From Fimbriosthenelais zetlandica (lineage: Eukaryota): DNA of 64,000 nucleotides. Shown in pieces: positions 1 through 18,000 of the stretch. Location of the stretch: the NCBI GenBank assembly GCA_977030845.1, contig OZ365117.1, forward strand, positions 3,038,001 through 3,102,000, given 5' to 3'. Made by a program: the position numbers. Positions within the stretch are counted from its first letter, which is position 1. Each line of letters starts with the position of its first letter.

Positions 1-3000
1 AAGATGCTGTTCATGTCTAATACAAAGTATCGGTAGGACAAAAGTCAGTTGCTTACCAAATGGCAGTTTAGCAGTTACAGGTTCAGTTTGAGCTGGATCA
101 CTTTCACCAATATCATTAACTGCTTTTATTTGGAAGATGTAATCTTTTCCTTCCACACATTTCTCCACCTTGAAGCTGAAGTCTTTGTCACTGACTTCTC
201 CGACCTTAACAAAGGCCTCACGTTTGACGTCGCGGCGTTCTATGACGTAGCCAGTAATGGGTGAGCCTCCATCGTGTTCAGGCTTCTCCCAACTCACCAC
301 AACAAAATCTTTGTAGATTTCTGTGGGACGAACATTCTGTGGAGGCGATGGGCGATCTAAAACAGAAGAAAAACATGTTGAATTTACTGGACTGGTCACT
401 TAGAACATGGTTGGCACTAAACTAATATTTCTAATGCTGAAAATACGGTACCTTTGACAGTGACATCAAATTCTGCGGATGCCGAGCCTGCTACATTTTC
501 AGCTGTCACTTTGTATGTGCCAGCATCAGCTGCTGTCAGGCCCTTCACCGCCAGCCTGGAATAGGTGCCCTGTGTCTCAATAGTGACACGGTTAGTGTTC
601 TCTAGTGTCACATCACCTCTTGACCAAGTGACAGTTGGTGTGGGTGTACCAGTGACTGTCACATAAAAGATCAAACTTCCCTCTGCCTTCAGTGCCTGAG
701 TCTCCTTGTACTTGTCTTCGTAGGTGATGACCGGTGCAACTGCAAAGCACAAAAACCATCATTCTCAAATTTCAGACCGTCAATAGCAAATTAAAAGACC
801 ATAACTTTACTGATTATTGGAATATCAAGAAGATTTCTCAGTTTAAGAACGCCCAGATCAAGATTGAATAGAAGAGATCTTACTATTGACTGTGAGTGTA
901 CATGAAGTCTCCACACGACCAAGCTTGTTGCCGGCCTCACAACGATATAGATGGTCGTCATTCAAATCTACCTTTGAAATCGTCAATGTTGCTACTTGAT
1001 TCTCATACGTCATGGCATATTTCTTGCCAGAACTAAGCTCTTCTTTGGAGTTCTTCCACCTGAAAAACGGTAGCATAATGTCCATATGAAGGGTGTAGCT
1101 TTTGAAACTAGTGTTTGGTTAAAGCACAGTGGAAACCAAAGATATTTGATAGTTAAGATAGAGTTGTTGCCTACCATTTAACCTTGGCAGCTGGATCTCC
1201 TGGCTTGATGGTACATTCCAGTGTTGCAGAGCAAGGAGAAGTCACAGTTTGGTCTTCCAGGGGTTTCACTAGTTCTGGTTTTTGCCCAGCTGAAATTGAA
1301 AAGCAAAAGACGTATATTCAATATAGAAAAAGATCAATATAGAAAGATTTTGAAACTTAGTCATGATGATATTGTTTCAGATCCAAAGGGCAGCAGTGCA
1401 AGGTACTTACATACGGGTTCCTTGAGAGTGACTGGCGGGTCGCTGGGATCAGACCATGGACCCTGTCCTGCCTTGTTGACAGCAGCCACACGGAACTCGT
1501 AAGTGATAGCTTCACCAAGTCTTGTCACTTTGTAGCCTGGTTCAGGTTTCTTGGTGTTGTCTGTGTCTCTGACCCAGGTGAGGGTACCTTCTATACGATG
1601 TTCCACCACGTAGTGAGTGATGGGGGCGCCACCGTCGTCAGATGGAGCTGTCCATTTAAGATCAACTGATGTTCCCCGGATGTTCTCATACTCGGCTCGT
1701 CCGGGTTTGCCTGGTTTTTCTGTAATTAACAAAAGATCAACATGAAGGTTTATTTACCATAAGATGACCAGTAACTGTGGTGATGTTCTGGTACTGAAAA
1801 GCCCAATGAAATGTTCAAATTGAGAAGGAAAGATTGGGAAGACTTACCATATGGATCCTTGGCAGTAAATGGTTCGGTTGGTGAACATGGTGGTCCAACT
1901 CCAACCTGGTTTTCAGCCATGATCCTGAACTCGTACTGATTACCTTCAATGAGTTCCTTCACCTTGTACTCGAGGTCTTTGACGGCTTCCTTGGTGATCT
2001 TTACCCATCGTGCACTGTCAGTCATTTTACGTTCTACATAATATCCAGTGATAGGCGAACCACCATCATTGGCTGGTGGTTGCCAGGTCAGAACACATGT
2101 TTCTGATGTGATATCGCTGACTGCAGGTGACTGGGGTGGACCTGGTGGATCTACAAGGAACAAATTTTCAAAATAATTTCAGTTTGCACATAAATTATCA
2201 ACATCATCCAAGAATTTGTCAAGAAGTTTATGAAAATAACATACCAAATTCGCTCTTAGCAGTGACAGGTTCTTTGAGCTCCGTGAATGGCCCTTGACCC
2301 ACGTCGTTGACAGCTGCCACTCTGAAGTAGTATTGCTTGTCCTTTACTAGGTTCTTCACGGTGTATTCCCACTCATCTGACGTCATGTCGTTGCCCCAAG
2401 AGCTGCGGGAAGCGTCACGCTTCTCAATGACGTATTTCTGAATGTCACAGCCGCCATCGTCATCTGGCTCCTCATAGGTTATTGTCACAGTAGATTCTGT
2501 GAACTCTTTGACCTTGAGTTCAGTAGGTGGTCCTGGTTTGTCTAGAGATAACAAAGTTTGTGTTTGACTTCCAATATCAATTAAACAAAAGGGTCAATGT
2601 TGCATCAGCTTTCTAAGGACAACAGCCAACAGATTTCTGTTGCACCAATGTCCATATCTTAAAGCATATTAGTTATTCCAAAGGAGATATGTTTTTGGAA
2701 CTTACCAAGGACAATGACCTTGACTGTGAGTGAGCACTCTCCATAAGGATTGCGCACAGTCACCACATATTTGCCTGAGTCGGGCCGCGTCATCTTCTTC
2801 AAACGCAAACATGTCATGCCATAGATTGTCTCTTCTTGGAATCGCTTGTCTGAGATGGGAGCGTTCTTAAACTTCCATTCTACATCAGGCATTGGGTGGG
2901 CTGAGAACGGCAGCTCTATGATGGTAGCCTGTCCTACTTTGAGTGTGCGCACCTCTTCAAAGTTGTCCAGGTTGAATGAAGGTGGCACTGAGAGAAAGAA

Positions 3001-15000: not shown

Positions 15001-18000
15001 TAATCTGTACTATATATAGTACTTAATCTGTAATCATATAGGCTATATTTATTTCCAATCACAATTCACAAATTATTAAATTGGTGAATTAAAGGTTTCT
15101 CTTACCGAATGGGTTTTTAGCGAGGATGGGTTCCTCGATCTGTGCTGGTTCACTAACCCCGTACTTGTTCTCAGCAAACACTCTCAACAAATACTCATTG
15201 CCTTCAATCAGCTTGAGTACGGTCATCTGGAGATCCTCTGTCTTTCCAGCATCTTTCCATGAACGGCGATTAATATCCTGCAAAAAACATCAGGAGATTC
15301 TTGTTATTTATCAGCTCTTTTACAACAGACCAATACCTCTATAAAAGAGTTTCAGAAATCTGTATAATCCGCTTTAAGTTCGACATCCACTCTACGATCT
15401 TTGGAAAAACAGATTTTTCTGATCGGCAAAGATCAAAATAAAATCGTTCCGGATCATTTCTCTATTGATTTAACATTGAAAAATCGGCGCCGATCCCAAG
15501 ATTTTGGCATCCACCAGCCCGATCATCTGTTTTTGGGGTCCCGATCGCCTGTGATCGCTTAAGATCGCAAAATCGGAATGAAAATCGGGCTGGTGGATGT
15601 CGGGCTTTAGATTCCATGTTTTCACAATATTGACGTTGACCAACCTTGAATTCTACAATGTAGCCGGTGATAGGGCTACCTCCATCATCTGCTGGCACCT
15701 CCCAGTGGAAGTCAGCAGTATCCGCCGTCACTCCAACTACGTTCGGTTTCTGCGGTGGTGATGGTTTGTCTAAAAATTAAAAATAAATACAATATGAACA
15801 AATGATTTGATATTATCATTTGACTATCAATCACCTAATATGTCGCCAATCATTCACAAGATGCCTCTGCTGCAAGGACCTGAACTTTCTGTCCCCAAGT
15901 GCCATATTTGTCAGAGCACTTGCAAATAACGCATATAGTAAGACCCTGCTGGTGCAGTTACACTTGCAGTAGATGCAACAGTTGCTCGTGCAGTATTCCT
16001 ATAACAATTCCCCAAGCAGTATGGACCCTGTTTTGAGCAGTATTCCTATAACAATTCCCCAAGCAGTATCAACCTTGTTTCGTGCAGTATGTCTATAGCA
16101 ATTCCCCAAGCAGTATCGACCCTTTTTCGTGCAGTATTCCTATAACAATTCCCCAAGCAGTATCGACCCTTTTTCGTGCAGTATTCCTATAACAATTCCC
16201 CAAGCAGTTTCAACCCTTTTTCGTGCAGTATTCCTATAACAATTCCCCAAGCAGTTTCAACCCTTTTTCGTGCAGTATTCCTATAATAATTCCCCAAGCA
16301 GTATCAACCCTGTTTCGTGCAGTATTCCTATAACAATTCCCCAAGCAGTATCGACCCTTTTTCGTGCAGTATTCCTATAACAATTCCCCAAGCAGTATCA
16401 ACCCTCTTTCGTGCAGTATTCCTATAACAATTCCCCAAGCAGTATCAACCCTGTTTCGTGCAGTATTCTTATGACAATTCAGTAAGTAGTATCAACCCTT
16501 TTTCGTGCAGTATTCCTATATCAATTCCCCAAGCAGTATCAACCCTTTTTTTAACCCTGCTACTCACCAAGCACCACCACCTTGACAATCATCGTTGCTT
16601 CCCCGTATTCATTGACGAGTTTAGCCGTGTACTCTCCTGAGTCCGGCCTCTCTCCGTCCTTTACACTGAAGGTTGTCTTGTTAACGGTGGTCGTTAGTTT
16701 AATACGCTCTGTATCCCGCACACTGCCCCCGTTAAACGTCATCTCTACAGACGGCTGAGGGTGAGCTGTGAACGGCAAGTCACGTGACTCGGAGCTTCCA
16801 GATTTCATGGTGATTGTGTCGTTAAACTGGTCATCCAGGAGGAACTTGGGCACAGCTGGAATAATAATAATAATAATTCATTTTGTATAGCGTAAAATCC
16901 ACAATAGTTTGTGCTCTAAACGCTGCTGACAGAAAAGTAGTATGGGAAAAGAGTATTGGAATTAACAGAAATAGTCTCTAAAAAGGTGTGTTTTTAATTT
17001 TGATTTTGAGAGAGAAATGAAAGAGAAGGGAAACATGTTAGATGGTGATGAGAAAGAGTTACTCCAGTTACAGCTGGAGCGGAAAGAGAAAGTAGACATG
17101 TTAGATGGTGATGAGAAAGAGTTACTCCAGTTACAGCTGGAGCGGAAAGAGAAAACAATGTTAGATTGCACTGAGAAAGAGTTACTCTAAAGAGTCACAG
17201 CTGGAGCGAAAAGAGAAAGAGACAATGTTAGATGACGCTGAGAAAGAGTTACTCCAGTTACAGCTGGAGCGAAAAGAGAAAGGAACAATGTTAGATGGTG
17301 CTGAGAAAGAGTTACTCCAGTCACAGCTGGAGCGAAAAGAGAAAGGAACAATGTTAGATGGTGCTGAGAAAGAGTTACTCCAGTCACAGCTGGAGCGAAA
17401 AGAGAAAGTAGACATGTGCTGAGAAAGAGTTACTGTATGTCCATATAGCAGGACTCAACGTGAGACAAACTGTTACGACTGTGAAAAAAAGTCAGTGAGA
17501 AGGTACTCCTTTGTGGGACGGACATCTACCACTGCATTGGAGCAGTCACTATCACAATGCTATAGGAGACACATTAAAATCACTCAAATTTTAATCATCT
17601 GATCAGCAAAAAGTGCTCTTGGAGCTTTACAACTTGCTAAGCTCCATCAGACTTTCTAGTGACCCTATTGCTTAGAATAGCATGATAGATGGTCAGAAAT
17701 ATAAAAGCCAACCAACACTCACCCTCAATAGAAAGTTTAGCCTTGGAAGACTTGCTTCTGGCCATGGCCACATACTCATTGATGTCCTCATCAGTGACAT
17801 CATGGATAATCAGTTGGTGGACAGTGTCCTTCATGATGATCTCGTATTTAGGACTCCTGTCTATAGGCTCGGTGCCGCGCAACCATTGTATCTTGATGTT
17901 TGCCTTGGTGAGCTCACATTCCAGCGTCACCGTACATGGCAACTCCTTGACAACCTGGTCCTGGAGATGCCTCACAAAGTCGATAGGTTCCTCTGCAAAT

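What the first reader, a model, noticed from the sequence alone, without database searches (positions are those of the whole stretch)
57..16855. A-band region built from an (Ig-Ig-Fn3-Fn3-Fn3)x2 10-domain super-repeat
Seen: the order from 16855 down is Ig,F,F,F,Ig,Ig,F,F,F,Ig,Ig,F,F,F,Ig,Ig,F,F,F,Ig,Ig,F,F,F,Ig,Ig,F, and sequence paralogy has a period of 10 (VEPINF/VPPSF pair alternating with SGxxPE/VAP pair). Established: vertebrate titin uses 7- and 11-domain super-repeats and twitchin/projectin use Fn3-Fn3-Ig; none has this Ig-Ig doublet pattern. Inference: a different ruler for the myosin filament periodicity. I cannot verify whether this pattern is already described for an invertebrate connectin.
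Basis: partly seen in the sequence, partly recalled or inferred. Interest (0 to 1): 0.68.

Follow-up and report, generated by a model that had tools for sequence, protein, structure and literature searches.

The report
Ten-domain super-repeat in invertebrate titin
This stretch encodes part of a giant titin-like muscle protein whose thick-filament-type region is built from a repeating ten-module block unlike the blocks of vertebrate titin or twitchin, and the same block occurs in a few other invertebrate proteins.

Summary
On the minus strand, 57-16855 encodes 27 intact Ig/Fn3 domains in the stated order. One more Ig exon (17992-17723) completes the first unit, giving 28 domains: (Ig-Ig-Fn3-Fn3-Fn3) x5, then Ig-Ig-Fn3, cut by the window end.

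The true super-repeat is 10 domains (a-b-F1-F2-F3-c-d-F4-F5-F6), 976-977 aa. Without the near-identical unit pair, mean identity is 49.2% at lag 10 and 38.7% at lag 5. The five-domain sub-period is weak.

Units 1 and 2 look recently duplicated, but synonymous divergence runs from 0.014 to 1.7 with dN/dS below 0.1. That points to an old duplication with gene-conversion patches under strong constraint.

The pattern is not unique. Six of 494 fetched proteins carry two or more consecutive units, including a Bulinus truncatus (snail) model. One unnamed protein keeps the same position order, lag-10 signal and 973-977 aa period.

I found no printed description of it. The gene is a titin/connectin-like I-band-plus-A-band protein of an unidentified non-vertebrate animal. 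The ruler reading is plausible (about 39-44 nm per unit) but untested. I rate it a new variant of a known kind.

The parts
17723..17992 (-).
   Evidence: I-set E 2.4e-08; own Ig HMM 98 bits; AG/GT flanks, 270 nt
16568..16855 (-). Exon b0: A-band-type Ig
   Evidence: I-set E 1e-09
15645..15769 (-). Exon F1_0, first part (Fn3 split by a 367-bp phase-0 intron)
   Evidence: fn3 E 8.4e-06; splice sites read from the sequence
15106..15277 (-). Exon F1_0, second part
   Evidence: own Fn3 HMM positions 43-99; 125+172 = 297 nt
14176..14778 (-). Exon F2_0 + F3_0 (two Fn3 in one exon)
   Evidence: fn3 E 1.2e-30, 2 stretches
13582..13869 (-). Exon c0: I-band-type Ig (single exon in this unit)
   Evidence: I-set E 7.7e-16
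11894..12181 (-). Exon d0: A-band-type Ig
   Evidence: I-set E 8.4e-14
11299..11601 (-). Exon F4_0 (Fn3)
   Evidence: fn3 E 3.1e-12
10104..10403 (-). Exon F5_0 (Fn3)
   Evidence: fn3 E 1.7e-16
8985..9278 (-). Exon F6_0 (Fn3); end of unit 0 (977 aa)
   Evidence: fn3 E 1.9e-16
8362..8634 (-). Exon a1 (Ig)
   Evidence: I-set E 2.6e-10
7903..8184 (-). Exon b1 (Ig)
   Evidence: I-set E 3e-11
7471..7767 (-). Exon F1_1 (Fn3)
   Evidence: fn3 E 2.6e-15
6360..6662 (-). Exon F2_1 (Fn3)
   Evidence: fn3 E 6e-16
5705..6013 (-). Exon F3_1 (Fn3)
   Evidence: fn3 E 1.2e-15
5423..5537 (-). Exon c1, first part (Ig split by a phase-2 intron)
   Evidence: own Ig HMM positions 5-38
5148..5320 (-). Exon c1, second part
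   Evidence: I-set E 2.5e-13
4619..4906 (-). Exon d1 (Ig)
   Evidence: I-set E 3.8e-17
4224..4523 (-). Exon F4_1 (Fn3)
   Evidence: fn3 E 1.1e-13
3532..4119 (-). Exon F5_1 + F6_1 (two Fn3 in one exon); end of unit 1 (976 aa)
   Evidence: fn3 E 1.2e-35; best solved relative is titin C-zone chain 8g4l_bm, E 1.5e-177
3152..3424 (-). Exon a2 (Ig)
   Evidence: I-set E 1.5e-11; nearest solved chains are cardiac MyBP-C, I-band titin and obscurin Ig domains
2706..2987 (-). Exon b2 (Ig)
   Evidence: I-set E 3.4e-11; best solved match is a titin C-zone Ig, 8g4l_bm residues 288-384
2245..2541 (-). Exon F1_2 (Fn3)
   Evidence: fn3 E 2.5e-15; 99.0% nt identity to F1_1
1848..2150 (-). Exon F2_2 (Fn3)
   Evidence: fn3 E 1.2e-16; 83.7% nt but 95% aa identity to F2_1; dS 1.66, dN 0.031
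1411..1719 (-). Exon F3_2 (Fn3)
   Evidence: fn3 E 2.3e-15; 99.4% nt identity to F3_1
1175..1289 (-). Exon c2, first part (Ig)
   Evidence: own Ig HMM positions 3-37
884..1059 (-). Exon c2, second part
   Evidence: I-set E 4.4e-14; acceptor placed at 1059 (115+176 = 291 nt)
452..739 (-). Exon d2 (Ig)
   Evidence: I-set E 2.7e-18; best solved match is a titin C-zone Ig, 8g4l_bm residues 685-777
57..356 (-). Exon F4_2 (Fn3); last complete exon before the window ends
   Evidence: fn3 E 7.5e-14; 98.3% nt identity to F4_1

Best explanation
The region is the start of the thick-filament-type (A-band-like) part of one giant titin/connectin-like gene. That gene fills the whole window on the minus strand. 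Upstream it encodes about 32 tandem Ig domains, two PEVK-like spring exons and one large unique exon. From 17992 down it encodes a super-repeat of ten domains: a-b-F1-F2-F3-c-d-F4-F5-F6, 976-977 residues, with no linkers.

Each half of the unit is an I-band-type Ig (a or c) followed by an A-band-type Ig (b or d) and three Fn3 domains. The A-band-type Ig plus three Fn3 resembles the Ig-(Fn3)3 module of vertebrate titin.

Shown here:
- The domains, their order and intact splicing.
- The ten-domain period.
- Conservation of position identities and unit length in other animals.
- Strong purifying selection.
- Growth of the array by tandem duplication of ten-domain genomic blocks, followed by patchy gene conversion.

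Inferred:
- The array lies along the myosin/paramyosin filament, and each position meets a periodically recurring site. The unit would then act as a spacing template of about 39 nm if packed like vertebrate C-zone titin, or about 43-44 nm if fully extended (close to 3 x 14.5 nm).
- The owner is a non-vertebrate animal. Its domain architecture is closest to a mollusc model, but the species is not identified.
For: - **Domains and order:**. Exon model with AG..GT flanks and phase-1 symmetry.
- **Titin affinity:** the best solved relatives of the Fn3 exon and of the b and d Ig domains are titin C-zone chains 8g4l_bm and 8q6t_I. The PEVK fraction is 0.76-0.78 over the 48-aa repeats.
- **Period 10 in the window:** lag-10 identity is 49.2% against 35.7% in shuffles, reached by 0 of 10000.
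- **Period 10 elsewhere:** in unnamed protein P0121 lag-10 identity is 50.5% (15 pairs; 0 of 10000 shuffles) and lag-5 is 36.7% (3005 of 10000).
- **Position classes:** P0121, classified by the window's classes, reads a b F1 F2 x c d F4 F5 x a b F1 F2 F3 c d F4 F5 F6 a b F1 F2 x.
- **Collinearity:** unit 0 maps collinearly on Bulinus truncatus Btru_006488 (P0128, residues 1065-1949) and on P0136 (918-1794), at 33-55% identity.
- **Unit length:** 977 and 976 aa here; 973-977 aa in P0121 and P0038; 982-986 aa for the junction unit in P0128, P0136 and P0103.
- **Selection:** between units 1 and 2, dN/dS is 0.019 for F2 (dS 1.66) and 0.073 for a (dS 1.74).
- **Weak positional likeness to fish and hagfish C-zone Fn3 domains:** F2/F5 match positions 6 and 10 best, and F1/F4 match positions 2, 5 and 9 best.
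Against: - No binding, localisation or expression data exist for this gene. Thick-filament association rests only on likeness to A-band titin domains.
- In relatives the IIFFF array can be short. The Bulinus model has two full units plus Ig-Ig-Fn3, and its neighbouring model (P0242) is 40 Fn3 domains in a row. P0209 goes from two units into 11 or more Fn3. This does not look like a filament-long ruler.
- At the residue-to-length ratio of vertebrate C-zone titin (about 1085 aa per 43 nm; PMC10665226, passages seen), 976 aa gives about 38.7 nm. That is not a multiple of 14.3-14.5 nm.
- The window holds only 2.8 super-repeats, and two of them are partly homogenised by gene conversion.
- The positional mapping to vertebrate Fn3 positions differs by only a few percent.
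- The species, and therefore the muscle type and filament geometry, are unknown.
Confidence: 0.6

Rival explanations
1. The ten-domain period only records how the gene grew, by tandem duplication of ten-domain genomic blocks plus gene conversion. It has no spacing function. The segment would be a generic anchor or transition zone at the I/A junction, ahead of a long poly-Fn3 region.
For: Units 1 and 2 share patches of 94-99% nucleotide identity that include introns. dS is as low as 0.014-0.065 for F3, F1 and F4. Copy number differs between proteins: two to three units in P0128, P0136 and P0209, at least eight units across P0121 and P0038. In two relatives poly-Fn3 runs follow the array.
Against: Position identities and the a,b / c,d alternation are kept between proteins only 33-55% identical. 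Unit length is held within 973-986 aa. F2 keeps 95% protein identity at saturated dS. Drift after block duplication would not hold these.
Confidence: 0.28
2. The unit matches a thin-filament or shared period of about 38.5-38.7 nm rather than a 43-nm myosin repeat. The segment would then bridge or register thick and thin filaments.
For: The only support is arithmetic. Scaling 976 aa by the vertebrate-type C-zone ratio (1069-1106 aa per 11 domains; about 43 nm per unit in PMC10665226, passages seen) gives about 38.7 nm. The 38.5-nm thin-filament period is recalled, not taken from a call.
Against: The b and d Ig domains and the Fn3 domains are closest to A-band titin domains that lie on the myosin filament. 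No actin-binding module was seen. The per-residue length is an assumption.
Confidence: 0.06
3. The repeat units are an assembly artefact, for example two haplotypes or collapsed repeats laid in tandem, so the array is shorter than it looks.
For: Near-identical stretches: 1402-1725 against 5696-6019 at 99.4%, and 18-745 against 4185-4912 at 95.2%.
Against: Identity along the two units is a mosaic of 66-99%. dS reaches 1.7 in a and F2. Intron lengths and exon fusions differ between units. The window has no N. Unit 0 is clearly diverged, at 35-69% protein identity.
Confidence: 0.03
4. The region belongs to another Ig/Fn3 protein family (myomesin/M-protein, obscurin, MyBP-C or a cell-adhesion receptor), not to a titin-like protein.
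For: Myomesin begins Ig-Ig-Fn3-Fn3-Fn3. That string was found in print only for myomesin (PMC3279349, search listing). The a-type Ig is about as close to MyBP-C and obscurin Ig domains as to I-band titin Ig domains.
Against: The same strand carries about 32 tandem Ig domains and PEVK-like repeats upstream with consistent splicing. The top solved matches are titin A-band chains. The pattern repeats five times, unlike the single copy in myomesin. No signal or transmembrane features were looked for.
Confidence: 0.03

Closest known systems
Vertebrate titin A-band super-repeats: D-zone Ig-(Fn3)2-Ig-(Fn3)3 x6 and C-zone Ig-(Fn3)2-Ig-(Fn3)3-Ig-(Fn3)3 x11
   Same: Both are linker-free arrays of I-set Ig and Fn3 domains. 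In both, domains at the same super-repeat position are more alike than neighbours. Both contain the Ig-(Fn3)3 module. The best solved matches here are titin C-zone chains. Both sit after tandem Ig and PEVK segments in one gene.
   Different: This unit has 10 domains (976-977 aa), not 7 or 11 (1069-1106 aa). It has no Ig-(Fn3)2 module. An extra I-band-type Ig precedes every Ig-(Fn3)3 module, giving Ig-Ig doublets.
Twitchin / projectin (Fn3-Fn3-Ig repeats with a C-terminal kinase)
   Same: Both are invertebrate Ig/Fn3 proteins of the titin family thought to lie on thick filaments.
   Different: The control models read IFFIFF... with a period of about 297 aa and a kinase. They have no PEVK and no repeated Ig-Ig doublets, apart from the conserved IIFFIIF stretch before the kinase. 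Molluscs have separate twitchin genes.
Protostome I-band titins (Sallimus/D-titin, C. elegans titin homologue, crayfish I-connectin) and the 'mixed' lophotrochozoan titins of PMC12063666
   Same: Both have tandem Ig domains plus PEVK-like springs followed by some Fn3 domains. The window's first ten A-band-type domains are collinear with a snail model of this kind. Sls is described as ending in five Fn domains (PMC9886278, passage seen).
   Different: Here the Ig/Fn3 part is a multi-copy ten-domain super-repeat of at least 2.8 units. No paper I could search describes that.
Myomesin / M-protein (Ig-Ig-Fn3 x5-Ig x5)
   Same: Both show a local Ig-Ig-Fn3-Fn3-Fn3 string (PMC3279349, search listing).
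   Different: Myomesin has a single copy, no PEVK and no tandem array. Myomesin Fn3 domains are weaker PDB matches than titin (E 1.1e-24 against 1.5e-177).

Membership tests
Titin/connectin family (giant sarcomeric Ig/Fn3 proteins) | Long tandem arrays of I-set Ig and Fn3 domains in one polypeptide | tested here: met
   32 of 32 ORFs gave I-set or fn3 as top family. 68 domain-model hits lie on the minus strand across the window.
Titin/connectin family (giant sarcomeric Ig/Fn3 proteins) | PEVK-like elastic segment | tested here: met
   48-49-aa tandem repeats at 36875-40351, 40537-40839 and 45273-46084. The P+E+V+K fraction is 0.76-0.78, above the 40% criterion used in PMC12063666 (section 18).
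Titin/connectin family (giant sarcomeric Ig/Fn3 proteins) | Super-repeat organisation of the Ig/Fn3 (A-band) part | tested here: met
   The lag-10 signal was reached by 0 of 10000 shuffles.
Titin/connectin family (giant sarcomeric Ig/Fn3 proteins) | Kinase domain near the C-terminus | not testable with these tools
   The 3' part of the gene lies beyond base 1 of the window.
Titin/connectin family (giant sarcomeric Ig/Fn3 proteins) | Sarcomeric location, with the Ig/Fn3 part bound to the thick filament | not testable with these tools
   There are no expression or localisation data. The organism is unidentified.
Vertebrate-type titin A-band (7- and 11-domain super-repeats) | Domain order Ig-F-F-Ig-F-F-F(-Ig-F-F-F) | tested here: not met
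   The window reads IIFFF throughout. Fish and hagfish controls read IFFIFFFIFFF with the same HMMs.
Twitchin/projectin | Fn3-Fn3-Ig repeat | tested here: not met
   No IFFI unit occurs in 1-18000. Control twitchin models show it.
IIFFF-type invertebrate titin-like proteins (unnamed group: Bulinus Btru_006488, P0136, P0103, P0121/P0038, P0209) | Two or more consecutive Ig-Ig-Fn3-Fn3-Fn3 units after a tandem-Ig region, with a,b and c,d Ig doublets | tested here: met
   Six of 494 fetched proteins have the pattern. Collinear mapping is and position classes.
Myomesin/M-protein | Single Ig-Ig-(Fn3)5-(Ig)5 layout in a protein of about 1500-1700 aa (layout recalled, and named in PMC3279349) | tested here: not met
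   The window has five tandem IIFFF units inside a gene that also holds about 32 Ig domains and PEVK repeats.

The most novel reading that the evidence does not exclude
The 976-aa, ten-domain block would be a true molecular ruler of a non-chordate titin that carries Z-side Ig domains, PEVK springs and a thick-filament template in one polypeptide. In that case super-repeat rulers are not a chordate invention. They would be an old bilaterian device that different lineages tuned to different periods: 10 domains here, 11 in vertebrates, 3 in twitchin. The extra I-band/MyBP-C-like Ig in front of every Ig-(Fn3)3 module might provide, within titin itself, the cross-linking role that separate MyBP-C has in vertebrates.
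Probability: 0.2. Interest if true: 0.8.

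Novelty: new variant of a known kind. Interest (0 to 1): 0.55.

Why it matters
Titin's 11-domain super-repeat and the 43-nm myosin period are the main argument that titin acts as a molecular ruler, and vertebrates offer only that one design.

A second super-repeat, conserved between distant animals, gives an independent comparison. It has a different domain count and a tightly fixed length (973-986 aa). If its axial spacing on native filaments equals a filament period, the ruler idea gains a natural replicate. 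If it does not, super-repeats may mean something else.

[quoted passage not shown] They have a regular architecture: tandem Ig, then (IIFFF)n, then poly-Fn3.

Tried and rejected
- **Species identification failed.**
  - The best named relatives of the F5F6 exon are only 44-48% identical (Saccoglossus, Diadema, Lottia, Lingula).
  - I-band Ig exons are 21-53% identical to every stored titin-like protein tested, with no clear nearest phylum.
  - Rfam and tRNA scans found nothing.
  - The protein searches had length limits of 421-2000, 868-2764 and 4130-5000 aa. Full-length giant models, including any from the source species, could not appear.
- **The representatives search was uninformative for this pattern.** The F2F3 exon was searched against 1.84 billion representatives. 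Ranking followed Fn3 count, and 0 of 138 new proteins had the pattern. This says little about how rare it is.
- **Literature searches.**
  - Searches found no description of an Ig-Ig-Fn3-Fn3-Fn3 or ten-domain titin super-repeat.
  - Ohtsuka 2011 (amphioxus connectin) and Steinmetz 2012 are not held.
  - D-titin (PMC2185597, passages) reports no Fn3 pattern.
- **Rejected readings.** Simple recent duplication and assembly artefact are both ruled out by the dS mosaic. The five-domain unit is not the main period.
- **Not done.**
  - I built, folded or searched no joined spliced protein. All searches were exon by exon, so there is no multi-domain structure model or length estimate.
  - The genome-contig collection holds only bacteria and archaea, so I did not use it.

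Full report
**What the window is.** The window has no N. Its minus strand is one long gene. HMMs built from the window's own domains, run over all 952 minus-strand stop-to-stop pieces of at least 20 aa, gave 68 hits.
- From 63.6 kb down to 18.2 kb there are 37 Ig hits and no Fn3. These make about 32 Ig domains, several of them split by introns.
- Two very large exons interrupt that stretch. They carry 48-49-aa tandem repeats rich in E, K and P (ORFs 36649-41505 and 44645-46711). The P+E+V+K fraction there is 0.76-0.78.
- A 1118-aa exon (50837-54193) has no Pfam match.

I do not take the contig for human. The best identity of its Fn3 exon to any vertebrate titin model is 35-44%, the top named relatives are invertebrates, and the architecture is not the vertebrate one.

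**Checking the observation.** Pfam gave I-set or fn3 as the top family for 32 of 32 ORFs sent.
- Below 18000 the HMM scan found 31 hits, which make 28 domains. No extra domain sits in the gaps. The gaps hold a 47-bp minisatellite and short dispersed repeats.
- One more Ig exon upstream (17992-17723) completes the first unit. The array is therefore five full Ig-Ig-Fn3-Fn3-Fn3 units plus Ig-Ig-Fn3, cut by the end of the window.
- All 29 exons have AG..GT flanks. Most are symmetric phase-1 exons of one domain (270-309 nt) or two domains (588 and 603 nt).
- Three domains are split by an extra intron. F1_0 has a phase-0 intron, read directly. The c Ig domains of units 1 and 2 have a phase-2 intron.
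- None of the 14 exons translated has a stop.

**The period.** I named the positions a, b, F1, F2, F3, c, d, F4, F5, F6.
- The a and c Ig domains form one type (29-38% identity to each other, 11-22% to b or d). The b and d Ig domains form another type.
- Between unit 0 and unit 1, same-position identities are a 35, b 40, d 40, F2 53, F3 47, F4 54, F5 69 and F6 53%.
- For units 0 and 1 alone, mean identity at lag 10 is 49.2% (8 pairs) against a shuffle mean of 35.7%, reached by 0 of 10000 shuffles. At lag 5 it is 39.7% (13 pairs), reached by 366 of 10000.
- The super-repeat is therefore ten domains. The five-domain sub-period shows mainly as F2~F5 and F3~F6 likeness.
- Unit lengths from the exon model are 977 aa for unit 0 and 976 aa for unit 1. 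The halves measure 486/491 and 488/488 aa.

**The near-identical copies.** Units 1 and 2 share stretches of 95-99% nucleotide identity. This accounts for much of what a reader sees by eye.
- It is not a simple young duplication or an assembly artefact.
- Exon identity runs from 72-78% (c, a) and 83.7% (F2) to 99.0-99.4% (F1, F3). Intron identity runs from 65 to 99%.
- dS is 1.74 for a, 1.66 for F2, 0.20 for d, 0.16 for b, 0.065 for F4, 0.05 for F1 and 0.014 for F3.
- dN/dS is below 0.1 wherever there are enough changes to judge. F2 has 53 nucleotide differences but only 5 amino-acid differences in 100 codons.
- The simplest reading is an old block duplication, later gene-conversion patches, and strong purifying selection.

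**Relatives.** Exons were searched one by one.
- The solved structures closest to the Fn3-Fn3 exon and to the b and d Ig domains are titin C-zone chains (8g4l_bm E 1.5e-177, 8q6t_I).
- The a-type Ig is about equally close to cardiac MyBP-C, I-band titin and obscurin Ig domains.
- I read the domain order of all 494 proteins fetched with the same two HMMs.
- The controls behaved as expected. Fish and hagfish titins read IFFIFFFIFFF. Nematode, arthropod and mollusc twitchins read IFFIFF..., ending in IIFFIIF and a gap where the kinase lies.
- Only 6 of 494 have two or more consecutive IIFFF units. They are P0128 (Bulinus truncatus Btru_006488: 14 Ig, then FFF II FFF II F), P0136, P0103, P0209, and P0121 with P0038 (listed on a contig of the same length, 31279 bases; five and three units).

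**Conservation of the unit in those relatives.**
- The window's unit 0 maps domain by domain, in order, onto P0128 (1065 to 1949) and P0136 (918 to 1794) at 33-55% identity.
- P0121, classified by the window's position classes, reads a b F1 F2 x c d F4 F5 x a b F1 F2 F3 c d F4 F5 F6 a b F1 F2 x.
- P0121 has its own lag-10 signal: 50.5% over 15 pairs, reached by 0 of 10000 shuffles. Its lag-5 value is 36.7%, reached by 3005 of 10000.
- The unit measures 973-977 aa in P0121 and P0038, and 982-986 aa at the junction in P0128, P0136 and P0103. The 11-domain unit of vertebrate-type models measures 1069-1106 aa, and the twitchin triplet about 297 aa.

**Results against a filament-long ruler.**
- In Bulinus the model stops after two units plus II-F. 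The neighbouring model, P0242 (Btru_006487), is 40 Fn3 domains in a row.
- P0209 passes from two units into 11 or more Fn3 domains.
- Rotifer titins look similar.
- The Saccoglossus and Diadema models go from Ig straight to poly-Fn3 with no doublets.
- P0122 shows another ten-domain variant, III-FFF-II-FF.

**What it most likely is and does.** The gene is a titin/connectin-like protein of a non-vertebrate animal that joins I-band features (tandem Ig, PEVK) to an A-band-like Ig/Fn3 array.
- That fits the statement that lophotrochozoans have two titins with 'more mixed' features (PMC12063666, sections 6 and 18, read). The species itself could not be named.
- Each half-unit is an I-band-type Ig followed by an Ig-(Fn3)3 module of A-band type.
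- Comparison with named fish and hagfish C-zone positions gives a weak positional likeness. F2/F5 match positions 6 and 10 best (40-44%). F1/F4 match positions 2, 5 and 9 best (33-39%).
- Position-specific conservation, fixed unit length and very low dN/dS argue that each position has its own partner surface. That is what a template lying on a periodic filament would need.

This last step is inference. The arithmetic is as follows.
- At the vertebrate C-zone ratio (about 43 nm per 11 domains; PMC10665226, passages seen), 976 aa gives about 38.7 nm.
- Ten fully extended domains of 4.3-4.4 nm each (a figure I recall, not from a call) would give 43-44 nm, close to three 14.5-nm myosin levels.
- I cannot choose between these. 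No tool here returns coordinates, and a ten-domain model would need a joined sequence.

**Known or new.** Searches found no paper describing this pattern for a titin-like protein.
- The literal string Ig-Ig-Fn3-Fn3-Fn3 occurs only for myomesin (PMC3279349, search listing).
- Papers I could not see may bear on this. Ohtsuka 2011 on amphioxus connectin is not held. I know only its abstract, from memory: it speaks of a vertebrate-like super-repeat. I did not look up Hanashima 2012 on Ciona.
- Supplementary domain tables of PMC12063666 and PMC12198301 are closed.
- The sequences themselves are already public as unannotated models, for example Bulinus.

I therefore rate the finding a new variant of a known kind.

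Noticed in passing
window 36875-40351, 40537-40839, 45273-46084 (minus-strand ORFs 36649-41505 and 44645-46711): There are 27 and 6 tandem copies (motif count) of a 48-49-aa E/K/P-rich unit. The P+E+V+K fraction is 0.76-0.78, which makes this a PEVK-like spring. The second block sits in the same exon as an Ig domain. Pfam finds no family in the repeat part.
   Followed up: partly
window 6718-7383, 9340-9881, 12242-13531, 15986-16550: The same 47-bp minisatellite (11.5-27.4 copies, 92-94% matches) has expanded in four different introns of the A-band-type region, all in the same orientation. Other intronic tandem repeats lie at 17020-17417 (63 bp) and 18958-19223 (75 bp).
   Followed up: no
window 6112-6312, 8734-8949, 20830-21050, 22137-22355: A dispersed repeat of about 210 bp occurs in both orientations at 71-95% identity. 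Several HSPs align a copy to another copy in both orientations, so it looks like a MITE-like element with internal inverted symmetry. Part of one copy lies in the ORF that follows exon F2_1.
   Followed up: no
window 15381-15607, 21466-21688 (inverted); a similar translated tail in ORF 31930-32289: A short repeat of about 230 bp lies inside the intron that splits Fn3 domain F1_0. By its translated tail, it also lies in the intron that splits an I-band Ig (32250-32071 / 31475-31353). Most other domains are single exons, so these extra introns may have arisen with, or been enlarged by, the element.
   Followed up: partly
window 1-18000, exon structure: Intron positions differ between units. F2 and F3 share one exon in unit 0 but are separate in units 1 and 2. 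F5 and F6 are separate in unit 0 but fused in unit 1. The c Ig is one exon in unit 0 and split by a phase-2 intron in units 1 and 2. Introns have therefore been lost or gained within the array.
   Followed up: partly
window 50837-54193 (minus): A 1118-aa open exon rich in S, E and D has no Pfam family. It lies between Ig exons in the N-terminal part of the gene and looks like a unique insertion of unknown role.
   Followed up: partly
window 23669-23989 and 59845-60135 (minus-frame ORFs): Two similar proline-rich ORFs of about 100 aa, with no Pfam match, lie in long introns. They are probably copies of another repeat element.
   Followed up: no
stored proteins P0122, P0242, P0279, P0287, P0246: Other invertebrate titin-like models show further regular layouts. 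P0122 has a ten-domain III-FFF-II-FF variant. The neighbour of the Bulinus model has 40 Fn3 domains in a row. Rotifer titins read Ig..-FFFI-FFFI-Fn3 x14. Saccoglossus reads Ig x28 then Fn3 x19 with no doublets.
   Followed up: partly
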